Below, piece by piece: positions 31,133 through 60,437 of a stretch of 64,000 bases of DNA; within the stretch, counting starts at the first letter, position 1; each line of letters opens with the position of its first letter. The notes under the pieces were generated by a model. It saw only the letters and a list, made by a program, of their open reading frames with translations. It had not been told where the DNA came from and did no database searches. A program made the position numbers and the translations under genes. The DNA lies in the NCBI GenBank assembly GCA_051294905.1, contig CM119372.1, positions 8,310,001-8,374,000 on the forward strand. The letters are read 5' to 3'. Source of the stretch: Botryllus schlosseri. Lineage: Eukaryota.

Positions 31133-34100
31133 TTATTCACCTATCGTCGCCGAGTCGTTTTCCGTGCCATTGTTGGTATAAGCCACTGATAGGGGATTCG
31201 TGTATCCCAGTTCAGCCGTTGTCACCGTCGTAGGCGACATGAGCTGAGTCGAGTACGTCCCACGCTTTCTGAAATGCATGCACGCGTCGCTGAAAATAAT
31301 CGGTAACGTATATGTTAAATTAGTCGCGAAAAATGTGCGATCGCAAATCTTACTTTTTTCTGATCCACCAAATCGATAAAATCAACACAATCGTGACTAC
31401 CAAGGCGATGATGACGATCAGTGGAATGATGCGGTGGTTTGAATCTACTGCCTCCTGTGAAATGAAATGATGAAGAGATAGGATAGGGTTTTATCGGTAA
31501 AGAAAGATTCGTTTCCCGAGTGCGGTATATATTTTCGGACTCGAACTACAAGTACAGACAAATGATCATTCAGCAACGGGGCTTAACGAAAGGAATCAAT
31601 GTAAATGTACGTAGGTACAATTGTACATGTACAGTCATAGATCGGGCCTATCCGAAAAGAACCAAGAGAATACGATATCTAGCCTATATACTTGATGTAA
31701 TCGTATGAACAAAATGCGAGTTAGTCAGATTCGATTTAATGTCTGTAGCGCTATATATACGTCTCTTCCCTAATGAATTCGTTTCTAAACGGGGGTTTCC
31801 AATAGAAAAGGATATCTGCGATCACGCCGCCTATTGCTACACTCATAATACGCCATGTATATATGATGCCGAAGCTAATCGTGTACTGCACACACTACAC
31901 ACGCATCCATAAAAGACATACGGCGAATAAATCTCGTGTGCTTCTTGCTCATTACGTGTGGTCTACATTTTACAATATATGTACGTACACTTGTTCATGT
32001 TAGCGTGGTAATATTTAACCTTGATAATTTTAATTTTGTCGCAGTCCGGGATTGGTTTATTCCATCTTCCGTCTCTTCCGCACTTCAACGTCATATTATC
32101 CTGCCCGGTTCTGATTCGAAATCCCTCGACGCATGTGACATGAACACGCGCGCCCTCCCAGTATGCGTGTAACGTCGTGATGGCGTTCGGATTTGACAGA
32201 ACCGAGACTGTTCCGTTCCCAAAGTTGGGGGAAGAGCAAGCCCTGTAGTCTGCGTGAGAAAAGGCGCAGTTTCTACGATGTGCAGTCCAGTTTCATCGTA
32301 GTATTGTCACATGTTACGGATGCACGCGATAATACAGAGGTATTATTATGATCCCACATCGGCCACAAAACATAATAGTTTGACGGAATCCAGCGTTAGC
32401 CAAGATCTGTGGTTCTTCTCAACCGCCAGCCCGCCAAGTATATTACAATTTCATATCTCAATTGCGAAATGCAAGCAGTTGGACGCCTGACCATAAATAA
32501 TAGAAATGATACGTGGTATTTTAAATTGAGTTGGTAATTTGGAACGTGCTGTTTATTGTTTTGCATTATGGCCTATATACTTTGGACTATGCGTATACGT
32601 CACAATGCAACAAATAGCATTCCAAACTGTTTAAAGTAGCCTACAAATCTTTTAATACCGGTTATATGAGAAAGGTGAAAAGTATTTTAAATTATTAGTT
32701 ACATTTTGACAGTCAGTCGGATTTTGCGACATTTCGCAATATGATAGAGGCTATCAAATTTGAAGTTATTTCACAAGAAGCCGAACAATCGAAATAGCGG
32801 TTTTCGATAGGACTTCACTTTGTAGAAACTTCAATAGAACCACTTAAAACAGATGTAATATCAAAAAGTCATCTGAAAATTTCTCATTACGCTGGAATTC
32901 CAAAATTTGCGTTCAAGTTGCATGCATTTGTCGTAATCATGTTGGATTCATTTGCATTTTCAAAGATTCAGCGATCCGCGAAATTTGTTTTGAAAGCTAA
33001 AGGGTAAGAACCGCTGGCCTATTTAGATGCATGTGCATCGCACAATTGTACATATGCGCAAGCGCACATTAAATCAAACGACTTAGACTTGTAATTGTCT
33101 TGCAATCGACTCGAGTAATTTCGAATATTTGCGAAACTTGACTAGAGAGGTAACCTGAAAAATGTAGAGACGTGACTTGAGTCAAAATTTGCATGGGCCC
33201 AAATGACCTGCCACTAGGTTGACTCGACTTGATCCCAACTCTGGTGGACAAATCACGAATACCAAACAACAACAATAGCCTTGTTATTTTACCCTTTTGG
33301 CACCGTGGTGCCTCGCTCCACGCCCCGTCCGCTTTGCAAATCAACTGATGCACGCGTTCTTGATCGTCGCACATCACCATTGCCTCACCCCCAGCTCTAG
33401 CATTCATAGACTTAAAAGATATTGTACCGCGTGTAAGGTTTAGGAGAAAATACGCATACAACATTCGGATTTCAGCGAACAATGCATGACAGACATATCA
33501 CAATTGATTACTAGGGCGTGGCGAGATAGCGTATAGTGGTACGTTCCACAGCTGCGACACCAATGGGTTGCGGGTTCGAGTCCGACCGAGACTCCAGGAT
33601 TCCTACCTAATAGGGTTTATCTAGGTTCTAGGCTCCTCCTCGCTACGTGATCCTCGTAAGCCTAGAAGGGGACCGTGCTACAATCGGTAAATACGGAAAC
33701 ATAATAAAGAATATTGGCCCGGTGTAAAATGCCCAATGTAGTCAAAACACCATGAATATCAAACAATAACAATACTAGCATAGTGATGGTGCGAACGTTC
33801 GGTTAAGCTCGTGTTCTGTATTCGAGTCCTGATAATTCAGAAGTTCGCCTTCGCAAACGAACCTTGGATGGTTCTACCCTGCTAACATTTTGTGATTTAC
33901 CGCTATTTTCCAGTAATATTAACATCACCGATCAACATTTCTTGCATTTAAACTGTATCACAGCAAGGGAAGTTCAATACAAAACTAAGAGGGACTTTGG
34001 ATCCGTGACAGATCGCCTGTCTTGGCCATCATCGGCTGCAGTGAATTAAGCGCAATCAGTTGTCGAATTGTCATGGTTATGATGGTATATGTCGTGCGCA

Positions 34101-37100
34101 GTGGCGTACTGAAGGGAAGGTTTGAGTTCGAGCCCGAAGTGCCGAGTCTATCTTCTATATTTGTTAGCTCATTTGCAATTATGCAATTAGTATCACGCTG
34201 CTGCGTTTCGACCGAACAATACGATGGCGCTTCGCGTTTCTGAAAGAGAACAGCAGATGTCACAGTGATTTGCAATACATATGCATTATAATATTTTCGC
34301 TTTGTGTTAAAATCATGTTTAATGCCTTTAAACATTAAACACTTTTAGCACAGTAATAGAAATAAATTTGATGAGTAATGTAACAGACTTTTGTTTTTGT
34401 GACTTGGTGAAAATCGAGGGTTCGCTGGAGGCTTACAAATTAGCGTAAGGGTTCGCCAAGCTTAAGAACCACTGCTCCAAACATGTCGAACATACTTGTA
34501 TCCGTAACGGCGTCATTCTTTGTGACAACGGCGGAGTCGGACAAGTGTCGAGAAGTTGGCAGAAGCGATATCGATGCCCCGGAGTAGTGGTCATGCTGTG
34601 CAATTTTTTGCTCGGGCACGTACAGAAATTCGCGGACTGACTCCAGCAGAAGAAAGTGCAGGGGAACAATTCGCAAAGGTTCGACTCTTGGTGGCGAGAA
34701 ACATACGAAAACATTAGATATGCGAGGAATATATTGGGTGGTAGATACCGCACAGCCATAACCTACAAGAGGTGTCACTGGTCACTGTCGATCTTAGAAT
34801 TCGTAACCAGGATGCAAATTTAGCAGGTGGCAAATGATATTAACCACACGACGCCGTGTACTTTTTATGACGTGAAGAACTAAACAACGAGAAAATATAG
34901 TGGACAGGCAAGAGCAGCTTTACACGGTATGGATATAGGCAGGTGGTTGCCACCACTAAAGTTCCATATACTCGTTCCAAAGACATACGCAAAAAACAAC
35001 CTTTACCCTGCAATTTTAAAGTTACCAGTTTCAGACAATATTTGATGTTTCAACTAGTATGTTTTTCATTTGAAGATTAATGACATCAGGGCGCTTGTAT
35101 CTCGTTACGACAATCAATTGACGCTGTGACTGGCTGAGTGGTAGGGCCTACAGTGAATTTTACCTACCTATAGGAGGCTGAAACCACTTTTGCAACACTC
35201 CCAATTGTGCGGAAACGGGTATCTGTCTCATTGCTAAGCGGGAGAAAACCTCATGATCATTTTCCCGCCGATAATAAACAGTCGACAGTCGGTCGTTAGC
35301 CCTTTGAGCTTTGATTTGAATCGATCCACCACCATCGACGTCGTCCCGCGATAGATCCGATTCAATCCACGACACTCGGTATTCAAACACCGATAATCCG
35401 GTAATTATTTTCGCGCCTTTGTACTGGTAGACTACTTTCCTTTGAAGATATTCTTGCTTGAATATTGACATTGCGGCAGCACGAAACCGGGAATGTCTTA
35501 CCTTTTGTATTCTAAGAGGGGCGACTTTTCGATTTTGTTGTCGCGGTGAGACACCCAGTATAAGGTGTTTTCGACGTAGTCGATAGTGAGTGTTCGGAAA
35601 ATGTCATCGGTTTTCTCGGCAAATACTCGACATTTTTTCCCATCGAGACCGCATATATTTAGCCTGGGAGATAATCCTGCGCTTATCTTACTCGTTTTAC
35701 TCGCTATGTATGAGTTACATACTTCCCCGTTCCATTTACAGACACGGACGAAAACACCAACGTAGACTGTAATGGGTTTAATACCAATCCGTTAATCTTG
35801 TCGCCATGTGACACGATAGCTCTTGAAAATTGCCCGTCCTTTGTCACAATCTCTATGCTCTGAACGAATTAACGTAGCTTGGGTTAAGGCCAGGAGCGGG
35901 CAACATACGGCCCGCGGGCCGGGTCTGGCCAGCGACGGGATTTTGAGCGACCCGTTGACACTTTCCGGTGTTACATGATAATGTGACCCAAGGGTCTGCA
36001 CTACATACATGTGCGAGCAAACATTTTCGACCATGAATATTAAAAAGACAAAGCTGCGTTACAATATAACTGGTGTTCTCATAGGCAGTCTTAACTAAGG
36101 GTTTCTATACGTCCGACACACGGCTATAGTTCAAAGAACTTGTTGAAAACTTTGATCGACCACAGATGTCTCGTTGGAGCTATTGAATATATTATAATAA
36201 TAAATTCATTGAATACTGGTCTTTGTCTCTATGCTTTAAACTTTAAGTTTACATAAAATACGATTTATTTGTTGTATAGGCGGATGAATCCGCAAATAAT
36301 GTATCGATCTAGAAACCCGGCCCGCCAAATACTTCATTTTCCCATATTCGGCTCGCCGACTGGAGAAGATGCTCATCACAGGTTTAGGTCTTAGGGAGTA
36401 TAGGGTACCGCGTGAATTGTGACTTTTCGCGTTAATTGGTGGCGCATTCGGCTCAACCGAAACGGCGGGCATATACGTTCAGCGTAATGGGCAATGTTAT
36501 GCAATAGGCGACGGGTGAGCTATCGCGCTACACGAATTCCTAAGGATCAAGATGTCTTCAAGTAACTCCGCGCCATTGGCTTATCAGTCAAGCGCATGAA
36601 CCAAATGTCTGAAAATGTGGTTCCTCTCGTACTGAGCAGAGTTACTATCGCAAAAACACTTCATCAGTAGGATTCAAAACTTTCACCTTACCCTCATCGA
36701 ATAGGCCAATATATTCAGAGGTGGTCTGCGTTGTTTTTGTTACTGCACTAGAAGTAGAGGAGTAAGTGTGACGCCGCAAATAATACGTCAATTACAAGCA
36801 GAAGTATACCGATTTCCAAGATCAGTAAAAATACGTCAATCGGAAGTAGAAAATGAAAGGTCTGACAAGTACCTAAGTAAGTAGTTAAGTAAGTAGTATC
36901 GCAAGCGTTTTGGAGTTAATCAGAGGTGACTATTTTTGAAATTGCAATATGTATCTTTGTGACAACCGCAAATCGACTAATTATACTACAAAAGGCGACG
37001 GTTTTTATTACAATTATACTCATTAAAGTAACGGAAACTCCAAACTACTTTGTACTCTTAAAATTTCAAATTGTCAAAATTAAATAATTTTGCGTAAAAT

Positions 37101-40100
37101 GTGTTCAAATATAGGAGTGGAAATATTCTAAAAACAAAACCACTAAAGTACGTGGTGCAGGTGTGCAAAACCTATGCTTTATTACCCCAGAACAGTAGAT
37201 TATGTCGGATAATGCGTCATGCCTATATGCAAATCTTCATTGATTCGGGCGACGTTTTGCACATGCCAAATAGCATACACACCTTTTTGTCTGTCACCCA
37301 ATAGATCTTTTTTCCGCCCCAATCCCAGCGCAATGCCAAGATAGTAGGAATGCTGTGAGTCAGTAACGTAGTATTACCGGATTCCGTATTCGTCACGTAC
37401 AAACGATGCTGTCAAGGAGAGAACATATCATGAAAACAATGCAGTGAAGATTGGAGGACCGTTGCAAAGCTTAAAGAATTTACGTACCGACTGATTGTCG
37501 ACCCAATAGAATTGATGGTCTCCTCGCACCGCGAAATATGTCGGTCGAATGATTTTCGGTGTTTTCGTGTTGATAAACGTCAACGGCACTACGTCATAAT
37601 GTTGGATTTGGCGGTATGTAAATACGCGAAAGTCGTTCCGGGTGGCAACGATGTATGCTGGCGGTTTCCCTGCGGATGAGCGCGATAATGTTTTTAGAGT
37701 GCCTGATATTGTGGGTAGATTATGTTAAGAGATTTCTCCTGCTACGTTTCTGTAAGGTTTTCCAAAATCAAAGTGGAAGAGACTTGTTCCGCTCTCCAGC
37801 TTGACGCTGTTATAAATAACTGATCTCAATGTGTGATTGGGAAAATATATAAAAGTGGTCGTCAAACTGGCAAACATCGCTACTCTAGTAAAAGAAGCAG
37901 TAGCGATTCCCATGATGTTTGAAAACTACTTCAAGCGTAAGAAAACTTCGCCTGTAGTTGATCAGATCACTCACGATTCAACAACTGCTGCGCCCGTCCG
38001 CCCAAGCGGATGGATACAAAAGAGGCAGATACAACACTATTGTAACTGTCACAGGGAGCAGTATAGAGCACGGCTGCTACACAAGTAGAAGTATAAATTA
38101 ACAGCTCTAAAAGTAGGTAGTCTCATTAGATTCGGTCAAGGCGTCCTGAAGGTGGCTACTTATTAAATTCAAAGATGCACAAATTGCACAATCACGGCTA
38201 ACGCAAAACACAAGTGACAATGTAAACAGGTTTACTTGGACGAAGTTAATCGAAGCTGTTGTTGTTTAATAAGCAACAACTTCAAAAGTCGTAAAATAGA
38301 AGTTGAAGTTAATCAAAGCCTACTTGACTGCTCAGAAAAACTAGAAGCAGTTTGTTGCTGATTACCTCTGATATATAGGCTATTCGTGTGGGATCAGTAA
38401 ATAATATACATGAGTATAGCTTGCCTTCTGCTTTACATTTGTACTTCTGTTCCAAAACGTATCCTTCGTTACATCCGCAGTCGTAGGAGCCGTCGGTGTT
38501 CACGCACGACTGCTCGCATTGATTGACACCCGATTGACATTCATTGATGTCTTGGAAGCGAAAGTGCACGAGTTACTACTCGAAACTTATCTTGTCCTCA
38601 GAAAATCGTTCTAACCACTGCAAATGCGTTGCACCAATTCGTATCCAGACGGACACAAACATTCCGGTCCTCGTGGTGATTTGTAACATAGGCTTGTGCA
38701 CTGTCGCTTCAACTCTGGACTGCACGCGATCGCGCAATCTCCACCTTCGTCAGATGAGTCGGAGCAATCTTTGGCACCGTCGCATATCTGCGTAAATTAC
38801 TTTGATTTTGTCAACTAAGGCTACAGATTTTAACAGTACTACAGTCGAACGGTTTACTTGCCGATGATATATTTATACATTGGCCGTTGTCACAGATATA
38901 ATGATCGATATGTGGGCAGGAATAAATGGAAGAAGTCGGCGTTGGATGAATGGTGTCGGGAAGTCGATCAGTGGAATTTGGTGGTTCGGCTTCCCCTGTC
39001 GAAAAGGCACATCCAAGGTCGAGTTTTAAATTAGAATTTGTTTAAAACGCACATACGTTGAAACATGCTTTAAAAGATAATCGACATATATGAATACCAT
39101 CTAAATTGCTATACTATAGCTCACTACGTGAGCACTACGCAGAATGATATTAAGGTATAGCCTGTAGTCAGCGTTGCTACTCACGGAAGTAGAAGTTCAA
39201 GTAACGACAATTACTTTATATACAAGTACAAGTAGAAATAACCATTTCCTGGGCATATGTCAAAATTACCTCAAAGGAAAGTAGAGAAATGAAAGGTCTG
39301 AAAGGTACTCATTCTACTCAAGGAAGTAGGTTCAGAAAGTGATTTAGTCGAGGGTTCGAACACTCTTAACGGATCTGAGGTGTCTATATACTTCCGAAAC
39401 CGCGAGATGTATATCTTCGCGACTAACGCAAAATGACTCTTAATGACACTACAAATATATATAATCTTCAAAAACATATTCAGTTACAAAGATTTCACGT
39501 TCAGTATAGTTCCCGATTACCTTAGTATCAGTTAAATCGGTCACCTGTACAGTTCACAAATTCGTCGCTGCCATCGTGGCAATCGTAAAAGTCGTCGCAC
39601 ACCAGCGATGAGGATATGCATTCTGCGGGGTCCTCGCATTTGAATTCTTGCTCGCCGCATTCCAGGTTGCTCTATAACGTCAAAACATGATTTGCACAGT
39701 AAGCATCTCAACTTGGATGGCCATAAGCATATGAACCGTCCCTCAACATATGAGTTTACTAGCAACACAGTAGGGTACAGGATCAAGCGCCTGAGTAGGC
39801 AGTCCAGGGGTCACCAACACGCGGCCCGCGAGGTCATATTTTGCGACCTGCGATCTGATTTGAGATTTTGGAAGAACGCTGAGTAAATTATTTTGAAATG
39901 CTGTATTTGATTTCAGTTTCAAAATATTGTTGTTGTTTAAAAATAAGCAACTCGCCTGTGCTCAACAGCACTATTATGCAACAGCTGAAACGGCTTCGGC
40001 AATAGCAATATCATTCCATCTAGGGAAAATCAGCTGATATGAATTGGCATATTGCCTAGGCATGCAGTACCCCAGACACTACCAAGACCGAGACGCTCAG

Positions 40101-43100
40101 AACACGGGACTAGGTGCGTCCTCACTAGATCAAGCTTTACGAGGAGATAGTCCGTCAGCTAGTAACGTGTCTCGCAAGCCCCAATATCGATTTCTTGGTC
40201 GCTAAAATGCGTTGTCAGGTATCGTGCGCAGCTCATAGTCCACTATTAAATGAAGTTTATAATCATGATTTTTGTTGTTGTATTTGCACATATTTAATAA
40301 AATATCGCTTCTTTTATGGTAACTATATGGTCAACGCCCACTGTGAGGCCTATTTTGTCTCGATATTGCATTCCTGCGGCCCGCGGCCTCAACGAAATTT
40401 GAAAAGTGGCCCGCGACCCGTTTTGAGTTGTCGATCCCTGGTATATAGGCCTATATCAGACTGGATGCGCTGTGAGACAGAAGCATTGCTAAGCTAGAAG
40501 ATACTGATGTCAAATTGAAAGTTGGATAACATGATATAGATTTGAAATAGTTAATCTACAAACCTCATCTTCGCCACCCGCGCAGTCTGCGACACCGTCG
40601 TCAACCCAGATAATCGGTATGCAATTCGGGCGCGCATCAGTATCAATCGGGGGACATTTAAATTCCGTTACTGGATCGCAGGAGCAATTTATTTCATCCG
40701 CTCCGTTCACACACTCCACAAAGCCGTTGCAAAATAAATCAGAATCCAAGCATTGACGATTCTGTATAACATAGAATAGTAACTGAAAATTCAAGTAGAA
40801 ATGACAAGATGTAGACCAGCTCACAGCAGTTGTGTTGTCTCCTGGTAATCGGCATTCTTTAAACATCGGCTCTTGACATCCTGAATATGATTGGTTTCCG
40901 TTTTCAAGACAGTATATAATTTTAGATGAAGAGAATCGTACTGCCGCATGCCTATATACATCAATTGGCGCACATGATACACAGATCCTCGCGTCGGTCA
41001 ACGTTAAAGTAATCTAGACTTCACAGCATCATCGGGCAGGAATGTATGTCGTATAACGCTTGTACATTTTTATGAAGGATATCAAAGAGTGTCAGTTGTC
41101 ACTTACCCGATAAGACTAGGTAGCGGTTTTCACTTCAAGCTTGAATTGCTGAGTCAGCATAATTTTTTTAAGTGTCGCGAATTTGGTTACAACCATTTTC
41201 GACCCAGGAACTACGGTTAAAATGTTGATGAAACGTTTAATTGGCGGCAAGCAAGTTCCTACCGTAATTACCACACCCCATAGTCATTCATACCGAGAAC
41301 TGGAGATACAAATTACCAAGAACTGTTATTTTGCGGATCAAACTCGAAAAGCATCTTTTTGCATGCCCCCAAGTGTCGATTGCTATGGTGTCGCTTGATG
41401 ATATCTCCTGGACAAACAAAAACGCGTAACAATGTTCTAGTGGTATCGCCATTTCGCCAATTCCATTTTAGAGAATTAAAATGAGATGATATCAATTACA
41501 GACGAATGTTTTAAGTCAGCGTTATAGTTATATAATTTATCACAAAGTTCTGGCTTCTAACCGCATAACTCCACAGACTCGTCGCTTCCGTCGTTACAGT
41601 CCGCGTTACGGCGATCACACGCAAAATTAAGACTGACACAATCGGAAAACAGATGATCCCATCGGTGGAAATGTTCGTCCCTTTCTAAAACGTCAGGAAT
41701 ATTTGTAACGAAGCCGATCTTAGTTTCTATCGCTGTCCTCACCGCCCGTGACGTTATATTGGTAGCAGTATAATTCGTCCTTCTTACAAGGCGTCGCGAA
41801 ACACGAAAAACCGTCTGCAGCCAGGACATAGCCATCTTGACATCCACAAGTGTACTGTTCTGTGTTGAAACGTTTTTTATTTTTTATTTTCCGAATACTT
41901 TCACACTAGTAACATGCTAACCAGGATGCGTTGTTGACGGGAAACAAAATTGTGCGCATGACGCTTGAGCTGCAGAATATGGCGAGCATGGATTGCTCGC
42001 GTTTCGAAAGGTGTGACTAGCGTCCACAAGGGTCATACCCCCTCGATTTTGCATGTTCACTTCTGTATTCCACGCTTCCAAGGGTATGTCGGCACGCTGA
42101 ACAGCACCGACTCTACTTTTTGTTTGGGTGATCAACCTTCCTGGAATAGGGTATTATAGACTATAGATTGACAAGATTGCAAGATTATATAGTACTGTAG
42201 TAATTTATTCCGAGTAAGATATGGTATGCCAAGGTATTGCTTTAGTCGATTGTTGGCCTAATTTATCGTATATTTAAAGGGGGAGGAGAATATGGTAAAT
42301 ATTTATGACATTGTCGTGCTTGGCCTGTGTGTATGAGAGACCGCAACTATATGGTCGTTACAACCTATCTGTTCATTACATCGCATTGTGTCTGATCGAA
42401 TTGTACATTGTGCGTGTCTTCTTTAGATGAAAATATAATCTGACGATTATTTTTATTATTGCATTGTGTATTTCCAACCTTTTTAATCGTAAGCGTACAT
42501 TATCTTTTCGTAATATAAATAACATTAATCGTATACTCTTAATCCGTCGATGGAAAGCCCCTCTCACAAGTTTATTTGGTGAAATATCAGTGAGTTATGA
42601 CAGTTGCCAGACGTAATCATAGTCAATTGTTATTACGAATTGTCACATAATTAAATCATGATGCTGGTTGATGATGTAGTGTAGAAAGTCAACCCGATTG
42701 CATTGTTGACATTATGAAAAGTTGCGCTGCTTCAATCCGATTGATCTTATCCAAGGGTTGCATCAGCGATTCAGCTATTGCTAAATCTCTGAGCAGAAAC
42801 TGGGGACTATTCGTTGTTATATGGGCTTATATAACTCCATAATTGCACAGGCTACATCTCCCATTTAAATAAATCCTTCCTGACAAGTTCGATGACACCA
42901 GAAAAAGCGGGGCTGTGGGATATGGTTCTTCTCGGCAATATTGTAAGAATCGTCAATGAGATGATCAGATCATGAGGATTTATCAGACTCACCTTTCGTT
43001 GGCTCGAAAACTGCGACCCTATTCGAAGTGACAGCTATAGTGGTTGCATCTTTAGTAAAAGCTACACTTACGAAGAACGAATTTGAATTCAACTCCACAG

Positions 43101-46100: not shown

Positions 46101-49100
46101 CTATTGCAGATGCTATTGTGTACACTGAGGCATTAGGCAAGCGATGATATCGTGCACACCAGGCCAAAGCCGCCAATGCAGATTCGATTGCGCAGTTAAG
46201 CGATGATAAAGTGTGAACTGGGCCTATTGCAGATGCGATTGCTGAAGCCTGCGGAACCAGGCTTGATCGAGACGCGATAAATCAGGCTAGCGACGATTGC
46301 CATGCGCACGGGAATGAATGACCTAATTTCGCGACCATCTCAGAGGGGGATCATCACAGATTCTTCTCGCTAATTGACCACACGTTTCTCGCAAATCCGC
46401 CGCGCGGAACACTGATTACACAATAATTGAATTGCAACTGAATATTAGAGTTAGAATGATCATTTCAAAATGACGGGGTTTCGCGTTTCAAATAAGGAAG
46501 TTCGACCCCCGATACCCCCGTGGCTACGCGCCTGACAGACGCGCGTATCGAAATCGAAGACGTCTCTAATGAGGTCGCATCGATTCGCCTTATTACTAAT
46601 TACTGGTCACAAATAACTTGGGCGTTTCAGCATTTTGTACGAGGTAACCTCGTAAGTCGGCGCCTATGCTACATCATTATGCCATGAATGACTATGGACA
46701 AGTGCGATAGTTAAAACAGTGGTTGCCAAGATATCTCGAGGAGAAAATTATTAAAATCATGTTATGGTGCTTATCATAACAAAGATCTTTTGCACCACTA
46801 CACAAGCAGGCTAATTAGCTTCATCAACAACACATAGTAATTGATCATTTTTGTAACGGACTATATGATATTCACAATATTTGGATCTGATATGTCAATT
46901 TGAAATGCCAAGGCTTTCAATGGGACTTGATAGGAAATCCAATTTCAACTTGATACGATTCATTGGTCAATTTATAACGTGCAAAACGCAGAAATTAGAT
47001 TTAGCTATTGCACATCACCTCTTCCAGTGTATGTCTTTGCTATGTACACCACTCTATCACTATACGGGTCGTAGACCATGTGACTGAGAGTTTGAGTAGC
47101 CGCGACACTTCGCAACATACGAAGGTCTGTGCCATCCGCATTCATCGAGTAAAGACTGGCTGATGGTGTGATTATGGTGAAGTGCAACCTGATTTGAAGT
47201 TGAAGAATGGTGATTAGAACGTGATATACGTATTTAAGTATACTCCTGCATTTACTTGTGTCGGTGATGATCGAACGCTAGTCCCAACGGACAATCGACA
47301 TCTTTCATGAAAATTGTAGATTGAATTGTAGAAGAGCGTCCTTCTGCATCTTGAAATGTTTTTGCTGCTATAACAGTACAGTTTGATATCCAATAGAGCG
47401 TACCGGTTGTCGGATCAATCGTGATGTATCTTGTTGGCTCGATATTTTCGATGAAGGTCACACTGAATGAAAGATCAGCGATTCAATAATGATATGATAG
47501 ATTCTAAGTTCAACCGCAACAATTACCAAACGCAAATGATGCTCGACGATGTTAACAAGTTTTCCGTTGAAAAGCCATGTAGGCCTACTATAAAAACGGC
47601 GTTGGAGCGAACAGAGGTTGAAGCTCTTTCGATATGAACTTGAAAGATTACGTCACTATGTAGGCCTATACATCAAGGACAAAAATAAAGTACGTCCTTT
47701 CCTTATACATTTTATGGAGACGAAATCATTGTGACTTCACGTTGGGCCGCGAGTGTTAACGAGAATTGAGTGTTTTAACCCGCCATTAGAAAATATATGT
47801 TATTTCGTGCATGCCTGATTGTCTGTAGCCGTGTTCCCGTCAATTCATACAAGCAGTTCGATATTGTGACTGAAAATTGTTTTCAAATCTCCGAAAAAAA
47901 CATCATTTTGATTAAAGTACTCGTGTTAACAATTATAGTGAAGCAGCCATAGAGATGATAAATTGAGGAATTATCATTTTACAATTTTTTCACCGCCCCT
48001 TGAAAAGGGGCATTGGCAGGTTGGGAATCTTTGACATAAAACGATTGGTTATCAGAATGAATGACGAGAGGGTCGATAGGATACGTTGATATGTCATAGT
48101 ACATAATTATGTCACTAAATGGTTTCCAGTAAGGCAATGAAACGCACGTTCTGCTTTAAAAGAGTATCAGTATAACATCTTTTAACTTTATATCTAGACG
48201 ACTATGCAAAAGAATACGAACTTTTCGCATACCAAAAACAAACTCCTCACGGACTGACCACGGGTTACCGATCACTGTGTCATGTGTTATTGCGACCATC
48301 GCGCTTTATAATGGTCATGAGCATTGATCATGTATTCAGGTCCCTCGACTTAAAAAAAGCTTTTGTAACAATATATAGACAATATAGAAAGAATATAGAT
48401 GAATGGTCGGTCCGGCACCTGAACGCAATTTGAAAACTGCCGGTATACAGAACCAAAAAGATTACCTTTTCGGATTCGGAGCATCATACTTGATATATCG
48501 GATTGATCTTTTCTCTCTGTCCACGAAATATATTCTTTCTTTATTTGCGTCGTACACTATCGCGTACGCTGACGCAGTACCATCTACGAAACACGGGTGG
48601 CTGGGATTCGGCGTGAAACCCGTTTTAAAGGCGAGACTTACCTTCAATACGAACGCGTGATTGCGAGCCATACCCATGCACTGTCCTCAAATATCCGTCG
48701 TCGATGATGATAAATTGGTACTTGCCGTGGACTAGAAACGAATGGGCACGACATACAAGTTGCTGTTGGGTGTTTGAAGTCTATTTGTAATGTGACATAA
48801 CAACCAGAGGCAGTCAAAGTAGTCATTGTCAAAACTCAAGTAAAAGTAGAAGTAACGCCGTGATTTTCTTCTCTATTAGAAATAGTGATTTACAAGGAAT
48901 TAAAAAGTAACTATTCCCGGCCCAGTTTTGCCTAAGAAACTGAGCACTGTCAAGTAGAAGTAATTTAAAATCGTCACCACTTGAGGAATTAGAGCAAGTA
49001 GTCAGAATCTACTTGAAGTACTTCGAAAGGTAGAAGTACTTCGTTACTGACCACGTCTGATGACAAGATGAAGCTATTCAGACTCTTTACTCACATCGAC

Positions 49101-52100
49101 ACGAATATTACATATAGATTATAACCTATACCAATGGCATGCAGCCGTAGCCATATATAATATTATCACCTTAATCCTGATTGACCCAATCAACACTTGA
49201 AATTGAGGCATTTTCATTAGCATAGACAGGGCGGAAATTTGAGAGGGATGAGTCAAAGTTTGGGGTGATGGAACGGCGCACCTACATTGTGACGTAGTCA
49301 AAACATTATATCACAAACCCTGGCCGAATAGTTGAGGAGTGGGTACCCCGTCCCCTATGACTGCGTTATCGAGTATATTGTACTCATATGCCAAAAAAAT
49401 AGTTTCCGAACGTAAATTAACGGTGTCAGCCCATTTTCATGCTGTATTAAATACCTTTGCACGAAGAAGTGAGACTAAAAAGGTATTTTGTATCAGGGCA
49501 AACGCACTGCGGTAGCATAGTTTCGCTCTTTGTCAGCGATTTGACGTCAGGATTGGTCATGACACAAGCGTGATCGCAATTCAGTGTATTACAGATAGTA
49601 CCTGAAAGAAGAATATCAGTAATTGAATGTATCAGTCTAACAAGCAGGAAAATACACTCACTATATTGTGGGGGTATTCGCTGCAGCATCGGGTGACTTA
49701 TCACCAAGGATTTAGCCTCGTGAGAGCTCGCGTTTGAACGAGCTAGTTTCGCCAACACCACCGCATTTTTTCCGTCCCAAGCTTCCGCGGATATGATCTC
49801 GTCCCGGAGAACATCATACCAACGGATTCGGTTTTCAAAGTAGGCTATGGATGATGAGCTTCGGTAGTAAGGGTGAGATCTTGATAAAACTACCTTAATA
49901 TAAAAATATATGGATTGTTTGAATTATTGTCCCGTCGTGAATGGACTAGATGTATGGATCTGGAGGTCGTCCGACATTTGAGCTTGTTACACAATGAAAA
50001 ACGACATAGTTCAAAATCAGACAGTTAAGCATGCGGCTTTATCATCATCCAGGGCTGGGTTGAAATCGAATAGCTGAGCAATTCCAATCGAGTATCCCTC
50101 ATTATGACGTGATGACAGTTGGAATAAAGTTCAAATAATGTATACCTTTTAGTGACCACAGCGAGATTACACACATCATTGAAGATAATTCGAAATTTTT
50201 TCGGCCCGTTACCTATTTCATTTCGTTTTGTGGGAAAGTTGCAGATTCATCACTACTTCCCAGAAATCTCGCTTCCACTAGTAGGTTGCTTTGTGGTACA
50301 TTTGCTTGATGCTGTGTTACAACCGACCTCTAGATTTCAAAACTTCCATGAGGGAAAGAAAGTATCGAAACTAAAAGTCTCGTTATCATTCTTATTGGTA
50401 ATGGCCGCAAAGTTTCATTATAGAATGTAAACGTTTACATTCTATAGTTTCATTATCCATAAAAACAGTCTCTCAGTTTCGACTCCTTCCCATTCCCACC
50501 TTCTCATTCGCGAGAGTTGCGAGAGTTATGGACCGAACTTCGAAGTCTTGCTCTCTGTTGGCCCAATGCCCTGTTGGTAGTTGTGACCAGTACAGTGTGT
50601 CAGTTGTAGTGTCGTAAGTTAGCGCGTTGGGCCACATCAGATGCAATTTCAAATTCTTTAAATCGGACCCGTCGGCGGCGACGGCGAATATGCGACCCAA
50701 TACATCGTACTCACAGGCGATCACAATCCTGAAAAGACAGAATGTAATCGCATATCATTTACAGCACACCTAACCGTAACTTCTAGTCTGGTCACATAAG
50801 CTAGCTTGAAAACAGTGGTGGCCTTACGAACGGGGGGCCCTGGGCGAGACTTACCGGGGGGACCCTATAAGTATCTAACCGTAACTTCTAGGGGGGATCC
50901 GCCCCCCAGGCCCCCCTTTCCCGCGGTAAGGTTTAACCAGGTGCTGGATTCGGCTATGTATATTATTGCATGTGTCAAAGGATAGACTACATCAAGACTA
51001 AGTAATTCTACCGCATGTAGAGGCGTGTTGATTATCGGGGGACGGAACTTTTCTAACAAATGCAGAGATTTGATGATGATTGACACATCCGTACGGAATC
51101 ATATTCTTGCTTGGTACACGGATTTCCATGTTTATTCGTTATTATCCTAAAAAAAGCGCATAATCCGAATAGGGGGGCCCCTTCGACCAGGGGGGGGCGG
51201 GCGACCGCCCGCCCACCTCGCCCACCCCAAAAGCCACCACTGCTTGAAAACGTCAATCGATTGCGCGGAGCGGAGTAGAAATATAAAGTTTCTAAATCAT
51301 AATAACTTAATGAGCTGAAATATATTAAAATATACAATATCAGGTCATGGTGCATGAAATCCTCTACAAAACTCGGCAGGTGTCGAGTAAGGATTAGATG
51401 TAAGATTGAGGGAGAGGGGGATTGACAGATAATGGTTCTTTGAAAAATATTGATTCAAGTCATACGAAATAGTCTTTCTTACCCAATATCTGAAATAGCA
51501 ATAATATCTAACACGTTTCCAAGGTTGTCGGCTATACCATGAATTGCCTCGCTTGACGCCGCATTGTCGGAGGAGTCTAAAAAGGATTTTCGTGAACGTC
51601 TGAATCTCAAAAGCAGCAGCAAACTATGTAACAACTTGTTATTGGCACGAGACCGATCCTTCCACAGGTGCTACAACCGCTCTTGTCAGTCTCTTTTGGT
51701 TTTCCTGTCGCGGTAAAGTACACGTTCCTGCCGATCCAGTCGATTGATATTCTTTGTAATACTGTAAGTATGAGGTATACATGGAATCCTTGATCTTGAC
51801 ACATGAATACTTTCATGTCCTTACCAAGAGAACTGTTGGATTCTACCAGCGTCATAACCTTCCCGCTTTCTGATTTTGACTTGATCATAGTCGTCTTATT
51901 CGTTGATTCCAACCAAAACACTGTTTCCGTCTCATATAGGTAATCAACATCAGTCGCTATTGAATCGGGCGTGATGTTCTACATGAAGTGAGTCAAAATT
52001 AGCGTGAACGTTTTGGTAGTGCATAACACCGTCACTGCGACCGTACGAAAAAAATTCTTCGCTCAAGATAAAGAGGGAATATAGTTTCACGAGAGACGAG

Positions 52101-55100
52101 ACCATGTTTATGACAAGCGGTGGATAAAAGAAACGTTTTCTTGCATCATGGGTAGCCTATGTGAAAGGGAGTCGTTGAGTTTGACAATATTTAGGACATC
52201 TCATCGGACCAACAAGGACGGGCTGGGAAAGGCAAATAACGCTCAACACATTCTTACCACATTCGTTATTGCATCGTAGTGTAGGTACGGTTTGGTGTCG
52301 TGAGCTCCTTCTACAAGAGGCAACAACATCATTCGACGTACTTGGTCATGAGTTCCGAAAAATAGATATGTAGAATTGTGCCCTGAAATAAATGCATTCT
52401 GTCGCCTGTCAATATTCTCCGCTTCAAATTAGGCTATATGCAATGCGATAATACAGTGATCGCAATGACATATAATTCTTATAACATAGATAGATCCAGT
52501 GGCAGGGCTGGGCATAATCGAGTACCTGAGTGATTCGATTCTGAATCACGTATTACGCTTCGAGTTAAGTCGAGTATTCGAGTATCACTCATTATGACGT
52601 CACACCAGAATGTAGTATGTCAAAGTTCAAATAGGTACCTTTTATGCCACCACAACGGGCATAATGACTCTTGTCCGTCACATTAAAGATACTTTGGTAT
52701 TGATTCGATCATACTGATTTCATTGCCCTTCTTGACAATGTTGTGGGATGATGGTAACTTCGGAAACGTGTTATTCCCAGTAACGTTCGTAGCTAGACAC
52801 CATAGTGTCCTACATGGTGTCGACACAAGCAACTCTCACGGCTCAGTGAAATTGTATTACGTCACAACAATGCTTTCTCGCTCTCTTTCTCTTGAGCTAC
52901 TCTCTCGTTTCGCCAGACAGCATTGTTGCGTCCCAATGCCAATCTCCATAACAATGAAAAATTCGAGGCTGATTGTGGGAGTTCCAGGGCCACGAGCGGA
53001 ATAAAATTTATATTTTCGTAATCAGTGCAGAGTCAGCTTTCGATTGATACCCGTTTTACCAAATTTAATGCTCGGCAAGCCGGTCAAAAATGACCGTCAA
53101 ATTGCCTGTAGCCAAATGGAAATTGTGACGTGATACAATTTCACTGAGCCGTGAGATTTGCTTGTGTCGACACCATATAGGACACTATGGTCTCACTATA
53201 GATAACTAACCTACGGATAGATACGCAACACCCGTCGTCACGCTTGCTTGCCCGGAGGAAATTACCGCTCAGCAATCTGAACGCAGCATAATTGCTAATC
53301 CCATACCTGACGACCTGAGCGCTTAAATTAATTGAAGTTGATCTTATTTGAAAGTTACTGTCGCGTTGATTCTGAAAATATACATTTAAATGGAATGGAA
53401 CCAGCTCGAAATAGCCTTCAAAGTCTGAAAATCGGCATTGTTGCTATTGCTAACAAGGGCAGCGACGTAGCACAATGATCATAACAATGGCCCTCGCATG
53501 GCTGCGATTGTTTACAACAATGAAGATTTTCAGAGGTTGAAGTGTATTTTGAGTGGGTTCCGCTGCCCTGATCAGATTTTAATGTATATTTTCGGAATCA
53601 GTACGACAGTAGCTTTCAAATAAGATCAACTTTATTTAATTTAAGCGCTCAGGTCGTCAGCTATGGGATTAGCAATTATGCTGCATTCAGAGGGCTGAGC
53701 AGTAACTGCCTCCGGGCAAGCAAGCGTGACGACGGGTGTTGCGTATCTAACCGTAGGTTAGTTTTCTATAGTCTCACATGCTGTGACACGGCCAATCAAG
53801 GTCTCAATGCTTCCTCAGTGGAAAATAGTATCAAAACCCCAATTCTCGTTAGTAAATTAACTTTCAGGAGCGTATAATTTCAGTATTGTATTTGTACCTT
53901 AGCCGCCTCTATAACAATTTCCCAGGATCTATAAAATCTGGCAATCATATGGCTTTACATCGAATCGTCTAACATAACAATCCGGATAAAATTTATACTT
54001 AAAAAATGTCCTTACCGTAAGGTTTACAACGTTGTTTATCCGAAGTCAACCCATACCCAGCGACGCATTGACATTGGTAACTTCCCACAGTGTTCACACA
54101 TATCTGCTGGCACTGATTCGAAGGGAGCGAGCATTCGTCCATATCATCGCATGTTTCATTGTCCCCACTTAATCTAACAAGATGAGTTTAAATCATTGCC
54201 TAATAAGGTTACACCAATGCCTCTATTTATTTAAGATAAACGTTTGATAATATGCGGTTCGTGTTTGATACATTGCATGGCCCGTGGCCGCGAAAATTGG
54301 TGAAAGAATGCACGAATGATCAATGTAGACGCTCTTCATTTCTTAGTAATCCTACCGGTATCCTTCGTTGCATGAGCAGACCGGTCCGCTTGGGGTTTCC
54401 TTGCATTTTTGTCCGCAAGTGTTTTCAGTTCTTAATGAGAAACATCAATTGTTATTGTTACATACGTCATCTAGACCCGTGGTTCTCAACCGCCGGTCCG
54501 CGGACCGGTGCCGGTCCGCGACGACATTCCTGCCGGTCCGCGAGGAATATTACAATTTTATACATTAATTTCAAGATGCAATGTTGAAGGCTTGTCCTTT
54601 GATAAAATAAATAAAACATCTAATTTTAAACTGATTCAAAATTTTGTGAGGTAACGTTAGGGCTAGAAACATGTTCGATTTGACTTAAAGTACAAGACGT
54701 TTCATTTGACGACATGCGAGCGACAAATACAGAACAGATACGAGCTCACTCATCGCTAAGCAGCGCAGTTTGATCATTGGTTTTCGATTCATTTATTTTG
54801 TGCAGGACCGTAACTGCCGCGCGGCACCCCAAACGGCCCAATTGGAGAGGGCCGAGCTTGAAAAGGGCCCAAAATTATTTCGCAAATGAATATAAATCAT
54901 AGCGTTTTATTTGAAAGTTTTTCCAACATTTTTCAATTTCTTTTCGGGCTTTGCACGATTTAGTGTCCCTAAATGTCTTGCTTATTAGGTGCCCTTCTCC
55001 GATAAATACGCATGATTTATAGGCATTTCGGCGTCAGTCATTGCCGCACCACGACGTATCTACACATAATGAAGTTTAGGTTAACATATGGGACTCCGAA

Positions 55101-58100: not shown

Positions 58101-60437
58101 TTGGGCGCTGAGCGAGAAAGTTCAACTTTTTTTTAGTCAACCGACCACACAGTGGGAAAAATATTACCATTTTTTGAGAATTCTCCTCCGGTTTTGCAAG
58201 TCTGAAAATTCTGAAAAAGTGTCCTCTTTTCAGATTTCCAAAATATGGTAACCCTAATTATACTATAATAAATACTGTGTGTTTGGATAGCAATAACATC
58301 AAGGCCCTAGACTCCAAGAGAAAAATTTGAGTAGCCCACAGTATCTACATTCGCATCATACCCGCCTTCGACTTGTTCACACGGTTTCGAGCATTCACCC
58401 TCTTCATCCTCGCCATTCAGACAGTCGTAGATACCGTCGCATTGCGAAATTATCGAAACACATTTGTTATGGTTGGATGCGTTTCTGCAAGCAATCTGTC
58501 CCACAGAACACGTGTGATTTAGTTCTTCGTCTCCTGTCGAAAAGTATTATGCTTGGAATTACTGTTTAATGCTTTTATATTTAATTTTAAATGCTGAAAC
58601 CGTACCGTCACATCCGATCTCATCTGAACCGTCTGAGCAATCCTCGCCTCCGTCGCATCTCCATTGGCTTGGTATGCAAGATGTCGGATCAAAGCAACTG
58701 AAACAAAACAGAATGTGTCTATATTTGGTACATCGTACGATGTACATTATACAGTATACCAGTATAATTTGCAACTTTACTTAAACAAATACCTACACGA
58801 CATGGTGCACATGCAGCATGTGCTATATAAGCCTATAATCTCTGTGTACTATACTCAGTATGCACACGATATACTTTGGTTTGCTATTCTCATTCCTACT
58901 CAGTCGTCATATAAATCCGCTTTTCTAATTTTATTGCCATTAGACGTGAGCTTTACTGAAACTGAATCAGTGTGGGCTCTTGACGCGAGCACTTTAATTC
59001 CTACCCGATCACAGACTACTAAAGATACGATGACAGCCCGGAAGATGTTCACTGTTCAATGTTCACCTATCTTCCGCGGACAGGTTCCCCACCAGATTCA
59101 GCGCCGGATAATATTACAATTAGGGCTGGGCGTAATGATCCGACTACTAGAATCTGAATCGAGTATTATTTCTAATGCTTCGAGTCGAGTCGTAAAAGAT
59201 GATTTTTTCGAGTACTGAAATTATACTCTCCTCGACACTGAAAGTTAATTTATCAATGAGAATTATAATTTTTATAGTAATTTTTACTGATGAAGCTTTG
59301 AGACTTTGACTGGCCGTACCGTAACATACAATACATATAGTACAAAGCTACGAACGTTACTGGGAATAACACATTTCCGAAGTCATGATCATTCCACAAC
59401 ATTGTCACTAAGTGCAATGAAATCGGTCAGGTCCAAAAATATCCAAGTATCTTTAATGTAATGGCTAACGGGCATTATATTCTTCGTGGTGGCATAAAAG
59501 GTACATATTTGTACTTTGACATATTACGTTCGGTTATGACGTCATAATGAGTGATACTCGATTACTCGACTCGAATTAGAATACGTGATTCAGAATCGAA
59601 TCACTTGGATACTCGATTTTGCCCACCCCTAATTACAAGTCCTATACTTTTTACTTACGCCATGTAATCACCGAAGCATTGAACAGAATCCTCGCACGTC
59701 TCCTTGCTTTCATCCGAGCGATCGGTGCAATCATGCACCCCGTCGCAAAGGGAATACCGATCTATGCACTGCGTACTGTCTGATTTACATTTCCAGGAAT
59801 CTTCCGAACACGTTACGTCGTAGTCGTAGTACTAGACAACGTACATAAGATAAAGTGAATGAAGAAATTGGAATGGCGTATCAAAAGAACTGTATATGTT
59901 TCGTTTGCTACGAGTAGAGAAACCCTGAAATCTCACATCGACATCATCACATTGCATTTCATCCTCTCCGTTCGGACAATCTGTTTCGCCTTCGCAACGC
60001 CACGCCGCAAGAATACATATTCCGGATGTACCGCATTCATATTCGTGATCTTCGCACTTGGTTTTATCTGCATGGTGATATAGCAGTTTTAAAAGCCATA
60101 GTCCTGGATATATAGTCTATAATCGAGTACTGAACTGCACGTTGATAGATGCTCGTCCATTCCATTCGTACAGTCTGGCTCATTGTCGCAAATCCACCTT
60201 TCGTCGATAGTAGTGTTTGCAGAGTCGTTACAATAAAACAGACTGACGGTGGATACGCCGAGAATATCCTGTGTCGCTAGAGTTGAAATGGTGCGAAGAT
60301 CCCAAAAGTAATCTGTGTCACCTACAGTACCGAAACGATAACATGACATTCATACCTGAGTTTGCTATGCAGTACTTACCAAGGCTGTAACTCACAAAAA
60401 CATATAATAATATACTATGATATGTACCGCCCACCAT
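31133..60437 (-). CDS. LDL-receptor-related protein, vitellogenin-receptor (yolkless)-like layout, 39 exons, about 1919 aa: SP, 5 LDLa, EGF, cbEGF, propeller, EGF, propeller, EGF, 5 LDLa, EGF, cbEGF, propeller, EGF, 2 sushi, TM, short tail
   Basis: Exons: 60380-60437, 60136-60276, 59937-60067, 59659-59831, 58606-58697, 58362-58533, 54356-54430, 54016-54173, 52258-52382, 51825-51978, 51636-51761, 51483-51576, 50500-50728, 49662-49893, 49455-49601, 48642-48731, 48466-48583, 47256-47462, 47019-47188, 42993-43112, 41922-42140, 41743-41859, 41562-41684, 40825-40880, 40564-40761, 39545-39671, 38862-38995, 38616-38787, 38425-38550, 37488-37669, 37283-37408, 35723-35859, 35502-35663, 35168-35439, 34496-34686, 33293-33410, 32020-32249, 31354-31454, 31133-31289. 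They sum to 5760 nt in one open frame. Motifs: start [20 protein letters not shown]; LDLa [20 protein letters not shown]; cb[65 protein letters not shown] few individual acceptors have in-phase alternatives. Confidence 0.9.
33518..33775 (+). mobile_element. tRNA-derived SINE
   Basis: A box tagcgtatagtgg, B box ggttcgagtcc; body homologous to 14778-15016; A-rich tail acaataacaata. Confidence 0.7.
39804..40440. mobile_element. Charlie/Buster-like MITE
   Basis: Imperfect TIRs caggggtcaccaac/gttgtcgatccctg with gcggcccgcg subterminal motifs. Confidence 0.65.
43223..43878. mobile_element. Palindromic MITE, second copy of the 7824-8485 family
   Basis: Long inverted arms taggggtgttaaaaatgac...gtcatttttgaacaccccta; high similarity to 7824-8485. 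Confidence 0.9.
45529..46534. mobile_element. hAT-like MITE containing a degenerate minisatellite
   Basis: TIRs taggcgcgtagcca/tggctacgcgcctg; flanks gcacacgc/acagacgc. Confidence 0.7.
48805..49059. mobile_element. Short MITE with AAGTA arrays
   Basis: Ends cagaggcagtca/tgaccacgtctg; flanks ataacaac/atgacaag. The same 3' end occurs at about 26290-26316; related AAGTA-rich relics lie at about 36715-36900 and 39168-39350. Confidence 0.6.
50813..51242. mobile_element. hAT-like MITE with G/C-run subterminal motifs
   Basis: TIRs cagtggtggc/gccaccactg; perfect TSD cttgaaaa. Confidence 0.85.
52799..53191. mobile_element. Fold-back MITE with CCATAG-type ends
   Basis: TIRs accatagtgtcctacatggtgtcgacacaagca / tgcttgtgtcgacaccatataggacactatggt. 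Same family as 7402-8721. Confidence 0.8.
53196..53771. mobile_element. Palindromic fold-back element with CTATAG ends and a 5-bp flanking duplication
   Basis: Inverted arms of about 190 bp, near-perfect; tctca on both flanks (53191-53195, 53772-53776). Confidence 0.85.
54477..57654. mobile_element. Cluster of tandem and nested Charlie/Buster-like MITEs (54477-55849; 55858-57654 containing 56140-57377, which contains 56789-57262)
   Basis: c(a/c)gtggttctcaac/gttgagaaccact TIRs; TSDs atctagac/atctaggc, atgtaggc (perfect) and tattatat/tattagat. Confidence 0.8.
57864..58256. mobile_element. hAT-like MITE (TAGGGTTACCATA ends, GTCCTCTTTT arrays)
   Basis: TIRs tagggttaccata/tatggtaacccta; flanks ttcatact/attatact. 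A 3' fragment lies at about 18290-18351. Confidence 0.75.
59121..59631. mobile_element. hAT-like MITE (family of 1680-2502)
   Basis: TIRs tagggctgggc/gcccacccta; TSD attacaat/attacaag. Confidence 0.85.

What the first reader, a model, noticed from the sequence alone, without database searches (positions are those of the whole stretch)
31133..60437. Yolkless-type two-cluster lipoprotein receptor with two sushi (CCP) domains next to the membrane
Seen: 5 LDLa, EGF, EGF, propeller, EGF, propeller, EGF, 5 LDLa, EGF, EGF, propeller, EGF. These are followed by CPTPPLSQ...[26 protein letters not shown] and CSSPNFGNG...VTCVEGFR...[16 protein letters not shown], then the TM. Established: the two-cluster, three-propeller plan is that of arthropod vitellogenin receptors (typically 5+8 LDLa), which have an O-linked sugar stretch or nothing at this position. 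Sushi domains are not part of the canonical LDLR/LRP members. Inference: a possibly undescribed LRP subtype, a candidate yolk-uptake or gamete/immune-surface receptor.
Basis: partly seen in the sequence, partly recalled or inferred. Interest (0 to 1): 0.7.

Follow-up and report, generated by a model that had tools for sequence, protein, structure and literature searches.

The report
Sea-squirt yolk-receptor-like protein with sushi domains
This is a real sea-squirt gene for a cell-surface uptake receptor built like the insect egg-yolk receptor, except that two complement-type 'sushi' modules sit next to the membrane; a second sea squirt has the same protein, and its job in yolk uptake is likely but untested.

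Summary
A 39-exon minus-strand gene (60437-31133) gives an open 1934-aa protein: 5 LDLa, 2 EGF, propeller, EGF, propeller, EGF, 5 LDLa, 2 EGF, propeller, EGF, two sushi modules, TM, 54-aa tail. Contigs of two probable RNA runs show the sushi1-to-sushi2, sushi2-to-TM and propeller-to-EGF joints; 34496/33410 was not among the rows shown. A colinear orthologue with both sushi modules exists in Styela clava (37% identity over 1803 columns); RefSeq calls it 'vitellogenin receptor Yl-like'. Sushi 2 passes Pfam; sushi 1 is degenerate and supported only weakly. Concatenated propellers group the two ascidian proteins with yolkless-type receptors (100/99 and 100/97), on a very long branch. None of 92 other relatives combines LDLa/YWTD with sushi, and ten paper searches found no description. 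Best reading: an ascidian yolkless-type endocytic receptor, probably for vitellogenin, whose sushi pair replaces the juxtamembrane EGF/O-linked stalk. Ligand and ovary expression are untested. New variant of a known kind.

The parts
31133..60437 (-). Whole gene, 39 coding exons, 1934 aa type I membrane protein of the LDL-receptor family
   Evidence: open frame with canonical splice sites; 37% identity over 1803 columns to Styela clava XP_039267289
60380..60437 (-). Exon 1: start codon and signal-peptide-like stretch
   Evidence: aligns with the hydrophobic N-terminus of the Styela protein P0002; not covered by the read lay
58362..60321 (-). Exons 2-6: LDLa cluster I, five repeats (repeat 1 lacks the Cys1-Cys3 pair, as in Styela)
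   Evidence: Pfam PF00057 on each of five pieces; alignment
54016..54430 (-). Exons 7-8: rest of EGF1 (75-base exon 54430-54356) and calcium-binding EGF2
   Evidence: only phase-compatible candidate in the gap; Pfam EGF_CA E 9.7e-12
49662..52382 (-). Exons 9-14: YWTD propeller 1 (divergent)
   Evidence: own propeller profile; joint 49891/50498 in X3; 39% identity to Styela
49455..49601 (-). Exon 15: EGF3
   Evidence: six-cysteine pattern, conserved in Styela
41922..48731 (-). Exons 16-21: YWTD propeller 2 and start of EGF4
   Evidence: own propeller profile E 1.4e-12; 34% identity to Styela
38616..41859 (-). Exons 22-28: end of EGF4, LDLa cluster II (five repeats; repeat 8 lacks the Cys4-Cys6 pair; Ser/Thr/Pro-rich linker before repeat 10), EGF5
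   Evidence: Pfam PF00057; joints 40761/40825, 39671/40564, 38994/39544 in X1 and X3; same features in Styela
38425..38550 (-). Exon 29: calcium-binding EGF6 (GC donor)
   Evidence: Pfam EGF_CA E 8.8e-10; joints 38550/38616 and 37668/38424
35168..37669 (-). Exons 30-34: YWTD propeller 3
   Evidence: own propeller profile E 4.6e-24; joints 35859/37283, 35438/35501; 45% identity to Styela
34496..34686 (-). Exon 35: EGF7 and first half of sushi 1 (Cys1718)
   Evidence: joint 34686/35168 in X1 and X3; 42% identity to Styela
33293..33410 (-). Exon 36: second half of sushi 1 (Cys1747, 1758, 1770 and the Trp)
   Evidence: joint to exon 37 in X1 (table 5c); weak sushi-only PDB hits; conserved in Styela; upstream joint not among rows shown
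32020..32249 (-). Exon 37: sushi 2 (Cys1777-Cys1842)
   Evidence: Pfam PF00084 E 9.9e-8; 36 PDB sequences at E<=0.01, all sushi-bearing by their names; joint to TM exon in X1 and X3
31354..31454 (-). Exon 38: transmembrane helix (aa 1858-1880)
   Evidence: highest hydropathy window, 3.27; joints on both sides
31133..31289 (-). Exon 39: cytoplasmic tail with a YxNPLS motif (NPGY in Styela) and a QLM/KLL dileucine-like motif; stop codon
   Evidence: joint 31289/31354 fixes the frame; alignment

Best explanation
An ascidian member of the yolkless/arthropod-vitellogenin-receptor type of LDL-receptor-family proteins. Shown: the protein, its splicing (all but one sushi junction), its conservation in Styela, and the grouping of its propellers. 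Inferred from the family: the acidic, calcium-binding LDLa clusters bind a large lipid-transfer protein (vitellogenin or ApoB-like) at the surface of oocytes or their accessory cells; the tail motifs recruit PTB adaptors and AP-2 to clathrin pits; propeller-EGF units release the cargo in acid endosomes and the receptor recycles. The sushi pair, gained in the ascidian line, stands where relatives have a last EGF and/or an O-linked stretch, and most likely works as a folded, protease-resistant stalk that lifts the ectodomain off the membrane.
For: Same module order as yolkless-type receptors among 93 hits; RefSeq name of the orthologue (automatic); concatenated propellers put the ascidian pair with those receptors at 100/99 (29 rows) and 100/97 after dropping four fast yolkless-type rows and adding three fast LRP rows, which went to their own clades (24 rows); AU tests reject ascidian+LRP1/2 N-terminal unit (p 0.003) and ascidian+Lrp13 (p 0.016); a wider clade with Lrp13 and hemichordate proteins (92/98, 97/96) contains the known vitellogenin receptors. 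Tail motif resembles the non-standard FQNPLA of Yolkless (PMC3338440, passages) and is NPxY in Styela. Ascidians make long vitellogenin mRNA in the hepatopancreas (PMC9265791, passages), so a receptor is needed. Exons are held by contigs of some runs but are near zero in two bulk RNA runs, as expected of a restricted gene.
Against: No ligand or tissue data. The ascidian stem is 2.4 changes per column; single-propeller trees are weak (propeller 1 unresolved, 2 at 68, 3 at 95) and class profiles do not favour any class. Grouping with protostome receptors against hemichordate/Lrp13 proteins (AU p 0.006) conflicts with the species tree and needs hidden paralogy or residual long-branch pull. The one ascidian LDLR with a published egg-follicle pattern (Botryllus ldlr, PMC4523013) is not this gene by its primers (best match 6 or more mismatches of 20). 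Cluster II has 5 repeats, against 6-8 in arthropods (PMC7243368). The spacer role of the sushi pair is inference only.
Confidence: 0.55

Rival explanations
1. A somatic scavenger receptor of megalin/LRP1 type (gut, blood cells, epithelia) that takes up lipoproteins or thioester proteins; the yolkless-like plan arose by truncating a duplicate of LRP1/2.
For: The plan equals the N-terminal part of LRP1/2; class-profile scores are as high for LRP1/2 propellers as for yolkless-type ones; the older RefSeq name was 'LRP2-like'.
Against: AU test rejects grouping with the LRP1/2 N-terminal unit (p 0.003); near-zero exon depth in two bulk RNA runs fits poorly with a broadly expressed scavenger.
Confidence: 0.22
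2. The sushi pair is a second binding site: the receptor couples uptake to complement C3/thioester-tagged cargo, or acts in gamete or colony self-recognition through a polymorphic membrane-near region.
For: Sushi modules bind complement in the closest solved structures; within one X3 contig exon 37 differs from the window at 21 of 241 bases against 5 of 251 in the next two exons; ascidians have polymorphic sushi surface proteins (vCRL1, PMC9265791) and vitellogenin fragments act in sperm binding (same paper).
Against: Of the 10 changed sushi-2 codons among the printed rows only 5 change the residue, and exon 35 is also divergent, so a divergent haplotype block explains it; the modules lie under about 1700 residues of ectodomain; vCRL1 proved not to act in fertilisation self-recognition.
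Confidence: 0.13
3. The sushi and TM exons are used only in part of the transcripts; read-through at 34496 gives a secreted ectodomain, so the membrane form with two sushi modules is minor.
For: In X3 one contig runs unspliced from 34688 to 34369, no depth is listed at 33327, and the contig of exon 37 begins 10 bases inside the intron; the 34496/33410 joint was not among rows shown.
Against: X3 also holds other unspliced introns (34659-34963, 37642-38453), as pre-mRNA or DNA would; X1 joins exon 36 to 37 at depth 12; both halves of sushi 1 are conserved and contiguous in the Styela model.
Confidence: 0.08

Closest known systems
Styela clava XP_039267289 (version 1 'LRP2-like', 1808 aa; version 2 'vitellogenin receptor Yl-like', 1990 aa), predicted protein
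   Same: Orthologue: 5+5 LDLa, three propellers, both sushi modules, TM and short tail in the same order; 37% identity over 1803 columns; same cysteine pairs lost in LDLa 1 and 8.
   Different: Longer Thr-rich linker in cluster II, longer linker before the TM, canonical NPGY in the tail; Pfam does not call its sushi modules. No paper on it found.
Arthropod vitellogenin receptors / Drosophila Yolkless
   Same: Two LDLa clusters, EGF-EGF-propeller-EGF-propeller-EGF then EGF-EGF-propeller-EGF, TM, non-standard NPx motif plus dileucine-like signal; propellers group together (PMC7243368, PMC4394447, PMC3338440, passages).
   Different: Cluster II of 5 rather than 6-8 repeats; two sushi modules in place of a last EGF and/or O-linked stretch; found in a chordate, whereas PMC7243368 calls the duplicated plan exclusive to arthropods; function untested.
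Vertebrate Lrp13 (LRX+1) and hemichordate 'LRP2-like' proteins (XP_077986933, XP_070532292)
   Same: LDLa-EGF-propeller receptors in the same wider clade (92/98, 97/96); Lrp13 binds vitellogenin (PMC12009396, passages); the Glandiceps protein has the two-propeller + 8 LDLa + propeller plan.
   Different: Lrp13 has one extra LDLa and an EGF next to the membrane, no sushi (PMC9935665); a clade with the ascidian pair is rejected.
LRP1 / LRP2 (megalin)
   Same: The N-terminal third has the same module order.
   Different: Four clusters and eight propellers, EGFs before the TM, no sushi; grouping rejected.

Membership tests
LDL-receptor family (core) | Clusters of LDLa repeats with the acidic DCxxxxDE motif | tested here: met
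   ten repeats, Pfam PF00057, ten motifs
LDL-receptor family (core) | EGF-precursor units with YWTD propellers | tested here: met
   three propellers by own profile; PF00058 at the cut-off in the Styela orthologue; no Pfam YWTD hit on single exons
LDL-receptor family (core) | Single TM and NPxY-type internalisation motif | tested here: inconclusive
   TM met; window tail has YxNPLS, not NPxY; Styela has NPGY at the aligned place
Yolkless-type vitellogenin receptors | Two LDLa clusters and three propellers in the order A-EE-P-E-P-E-A-EE-P-E | tested here: met
Yolkless-type vitellogenin receptors | 4-5 repeats in cluster I, 6-8 in cluster II (PMC7243368) | tested here: not met
   5+5 in both ascidians
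Yolkless-type vitellogenin receptors | Common descent of the propellers | tested here: inconclusive
   concatenated trees 100/99 and 100/97 but long branch, weak single-propeller trees, uninformative class profiles, conflict with species tree
Yolkless-type vitellogenin receptors | Ovary-specific expression and vitellogenin binding/uptake | not testable with these tools
   runs carry no tissue labels
Lrp13 (LRX+1) | One extra LDLa repeat next to the membrane | tested here: not met
   sushi pair instead; clade rejected, p 0.016
LRP1/LRP2 | Four LDLa clusters, eight propellers | tested here: not met
   two and three; clade with the N-terminal unit rejected, p 0.003
Sushi/CCP module (module 2) | Four cysteines, conserved Trp, profile match | tested here: met
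   PF00084 E 9.9e-8, above cut-off; PDB matches
Sushi/CCP module (module 1) | Four cysteines, conserved Trp, profile or fold match | tested here: inconclusive
   cysteines and Trp present and conserved; no Pfam hit; low-confidence model of the Styela region (pLDDT 45) matches single CCP modules over about 50 residues at rmsd 2.0-2.9, best Z 4.5, Foldseek E >= 0.022

The most novel reading that the evidence does not exclude
Ascidians kept an ancient yolkless-type vitellogenin receptor that vertebrates lost, and grafted onto it a fast-varying sushi pair that serves as a second recognition site (complement-tagged cargo, or self/non-self at the egg or follicle surface), tying yolk uptake to recognition.
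Probability: 0.12. Interest if true: 0.75.

Novelty: new variant of a known kind. Interest (0 to 1): 0.42.

Why it matters
No ascidian vitellogenin receptor turned up in my paper searches beyond one suggested Botryllus ldlr, which is a different gene. This gives a concrete, conserved candidate that can be tested by in situ hybridisation and knock-down. It also shows that the two-cluster yolkless plan, described in PMC7243368 as exclusive to arthropods, occurs in chordates and hemichordates, which bears on how yolk receptors (yolkless, Lrp13, VLDLR/Lr8) replaced one another. The sushi pair is a module not seen in the LDLR-family receptors examined here. By itself it is an exon-shuffling variant; it would matter more if it binds a ligand.

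Tried and rejected
No whole genome is held for this window, so copy number and paralogues were not checked. Word-based searches with single exons found nothing (sushi 2: 0 of 7 candidates; propeller exon 13: 0 of 83); this is weak evidence. (Atlas) and one row each of alignments A1 and A2 used exon 35 in a wrong frame; those results were discarded and the frame corrected. The Atlas search with the Styela sushi region gave only sushi clusters, at scores 0.79-0.85, a lead only. The run search listed no holder on record as RNA; X1 and X3 are RNA by guess, though their spliced joints show transcripts. Raw-read runs X18 and X22 gave next to no exon depth and no joints. Botryllus ldlr primers do not match, so its published expression cannot be borrowed. 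A 253-propeller FastTree and class profiles did not resolve the origin. My sushi profile, built from the four ascidian modules, missed the Pfam-called sushi of P0072, so its silence on other proteins is weak; the pattern search and reading of 49 juxtamembrane regions carry that point. No orthologue from Ciona, Phallusia, Clavelina or amphioxus appeared; with this divergence that does not show absence. Paper searches found no LDLa-YWTD-sushi receptor; the library lacks most subscription papers. The supplements of PMC4523013 were listed but not read; several are too large to read and could list further LRP-like contigs of fertile colonies.

Full report
Observation. Six-frame translation and the raw sequence show LDLa, EGF, YWTD-like and sushi pieces on the minus strand between 60437 and 31133. 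I fixed exon ends at AG and GT/GC sites. The result is 39 exons and 5805 bases, one open frame of 1934 aa, with 13 of 38 introns only 58-67 bases long. Pfam on 36 pieces found LDLa on all ten repeats (two below cut-off), EGF families on the calcium-binding EGFs, Sushi on exon 32249-32020 (E 9.9e-8), and nothing on any propeller piece. A profile from 39 canonical propellers recognises the three propellers.

Splicing. Four runs were laid on 30900-50850, which holds 26 of the 38 introns. The rows printed (15 of 69 joints, 12 of 31 joint-insert rows) show 12 of these 26 introns, all at the modelled sites. They include propeller 3 to EGF7 (34686/35168, X1 and X3), sushi 1 to sushi 2 (32250/33295 with one other letter, X1), sushi 2 to TM (X1, X3) and TM to tail (X1, X3), which fixes the tail frame. 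The junction inside sushi 1 (34496/33410) is not among the rows printed. Against it, X3 has a contig that reads on into that intron and no depth at 33327; X3 also keeps other introns unspliced. Exons 1-12 lay outside the stretch laid. The two raw-read bulk runs show next to no exon depth.

Orthologue. A phmmer search of the exon 14-15 stretch against 1.84 billion representatives gave one hit (E 4.9e-14): Styela clava XP_039267289, named 'LRP2-like' in version 1 and 'vitellogenin receptor Yl-like' in version 2. It is colinear with my model, 37% identical over 1803 columns, and has both juxtamembrane modules with all eight cysteines and both tryptophans; it aligns without a gap across the unconfirmed junction. 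Identity is 33% in each sushi module against 34-49% in the other ectodomain parts. Both species lack the same disulfide pair in LDLa 1 and in LDLa 8. With earlier notes of this scan that call the genome a sea squirt (unchecked), I take the organism to be an ascidian; the species was not determined.

Are they sushi modules? Module 2: yes (Pfam; 36 PDB matches). Module 1 is degenerate: no Pfam hit (Pfam also misses both modules in Styela), but 9 of 9 weak PDB hits to its second half are sushi proteins. A model of the Styela EGF-module-module stretch is poor overall (pLDDT 45; 64-75 in the second half of module 1). Every Foldseek row listed is a tandem-CCP protein, none at E <= 0.001. VIA-align fits module 1 to single CCPs over about 50 residues at rmsd 2.0-2.9, best Z 4.5, below the level that would stand alone. 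The lines agree but each is weak.

How unusual? A whole-length search with the Styela protein returned 93 proteins. Apart from the Styela record itself, 1 of 92 carries PF00084, a fibrillin-like protein without LDLa or YWTD. I read the membrane-near region of the 49 non-ascidian hits with a C-terminal TM: 0 of 49 have a sushi pattern there. Yolkless-type receptors have one or two EGFs and a short linker; Lrp13 has an LDLa and an EGF. This is a sample, limited by shared words and length, not a census. Ten paper searches found no such receptor described.

Origin. A tree of 253 single propellers and class profiles were uninformative. Concatenating the three propellers (801 columns, LG+C20 PMSF) placed the ascidian pair with eight yolkless-type receptors at 100/99, within a clade with Lrp13 and two hemichordate proteins at 92/98 (29 rows). 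Two of those eight are unnamed proteins that I classed by architecture alone. With four fast yolkless-type rows dropped, three fast nematode/ostracod LRP rows added and four other rows removed, the values were 100/97 and 97/96, and the fast LRP rows joined their own clades (24 rows). AU tests rejected ascidian+Lrp13 (p 0.016), ascidian+LRP1/2 N-terminal unit (p 0.003) and ascidian+Lrp13+hemichordate (p 0.006). Cautions: the ascidian stem is 2.4 changes per column; single propellers give unresolved, 68 and 95; the placement disagrees with the species tree; no spiralian or echinoderm receptor of known identity was in the set.

How it probably works. From family knowledge (recalled; domain lists in PMC4394447, PMC7243368, PMC9935665, PMC12480657, passages read), LDLa clusters bind ligand, propeller-EGF units release it in endosomes, and tail motifs drive clathrin uptake. 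The tail has YxNPLS, close to the non-standard FQNPLA of Yolkless that Ced-6 reads, and a dileucine-like QLM (KLL in Styela), as Yolkless has a redundant dileucine signal (PMC3338440, passages); Styela has NPGY. Cluster I of crab VtgR and of zebrafish Lrp13 binds the vitellogenin N-terminal domain (PMC12009396, passages). Halocynthia makes long vitellogenin mRNA in the hepatopancreas (PMC9265791, passages). So a vitellogenin/ApoB-like uptake receptor is my best reading (0.55). The sushi pair most simply replaces the juxtamembrane EGF/O-linked stalk, whose known role is protection from shedding (PMC12480657, passage); this step is inference. The Botryllus ldlr seen in egg follicle cells (PMC4523013, passages and primer tables) is another gene by its primers.

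Verdict. Real, spliced, conserved in two ascidians, and not described in the papers I could search; but its type is known and RefSeq already gives the orthologue a yolkless-like name. It works like a yolkless-type receptor by inference. Membership is met for the plan, not met for the repeat count, inconclusive for descent and untested for function. New variant of a known kind; interest 0.42.

Noticed in passing
window 641-6112 (+): An annexin gene, three pieces with Pfam PF00191.
   Followed up: partly
window 9769-13731 (-): A gene with two TIL domains (11655-11966, 12265-12561; Pfam PF01826), a Thr/Pro-rich linker and an EGF-like piece at 10399-10641 (no Pfam hit).
   Followed up: partly
window 22637-23044 (-): A cysteine-rich exon that looks like an IGFBP-type N-terminal module (recalled motif; no Pfam hit).
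   Followed up: no
window 32020-32249 and 34496-34686 (-): A second allele differs strongly here: 21 of 241 bases in the sushi-2 exon against 5 of 251 in the next two exons of the same X3 contig; about half of the printed changes alter the residue. Divergent haplotype block or diversifying selection.
   Followed up: partly
window 38862 and 38425 (-): Two GC-AG introns in one gene; the one at 38424-37670 is seen as a joint in X3.
   Followed up: partly
window 40564-40761 and 60136-60321 (-): LDLa repeats 8 and 1 have each lost one whole disulfide pair, identically in Styela clava.
   Followed up: partly
proteins P0028 and P0025: Hemichordate 'LRP2-like' predicted proteins have the yolkless-type order of propellers and an 8-repeat cluster, so the plan is not confined to arthropods. 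Fish Lrp13 models with 25-38 LDLa repeats and four propellers also appeared (P0004, P0008, P0016, P0018).
   Followed up: partly
window 42200-46900, 36228-36893, 33564-34229: Intronic stretches with very high contig depth, i.e. dispersed repeats; poly(A)-bearing reads of another transcript match only 42364-42412 and 47670-47704.
   Followed up: no
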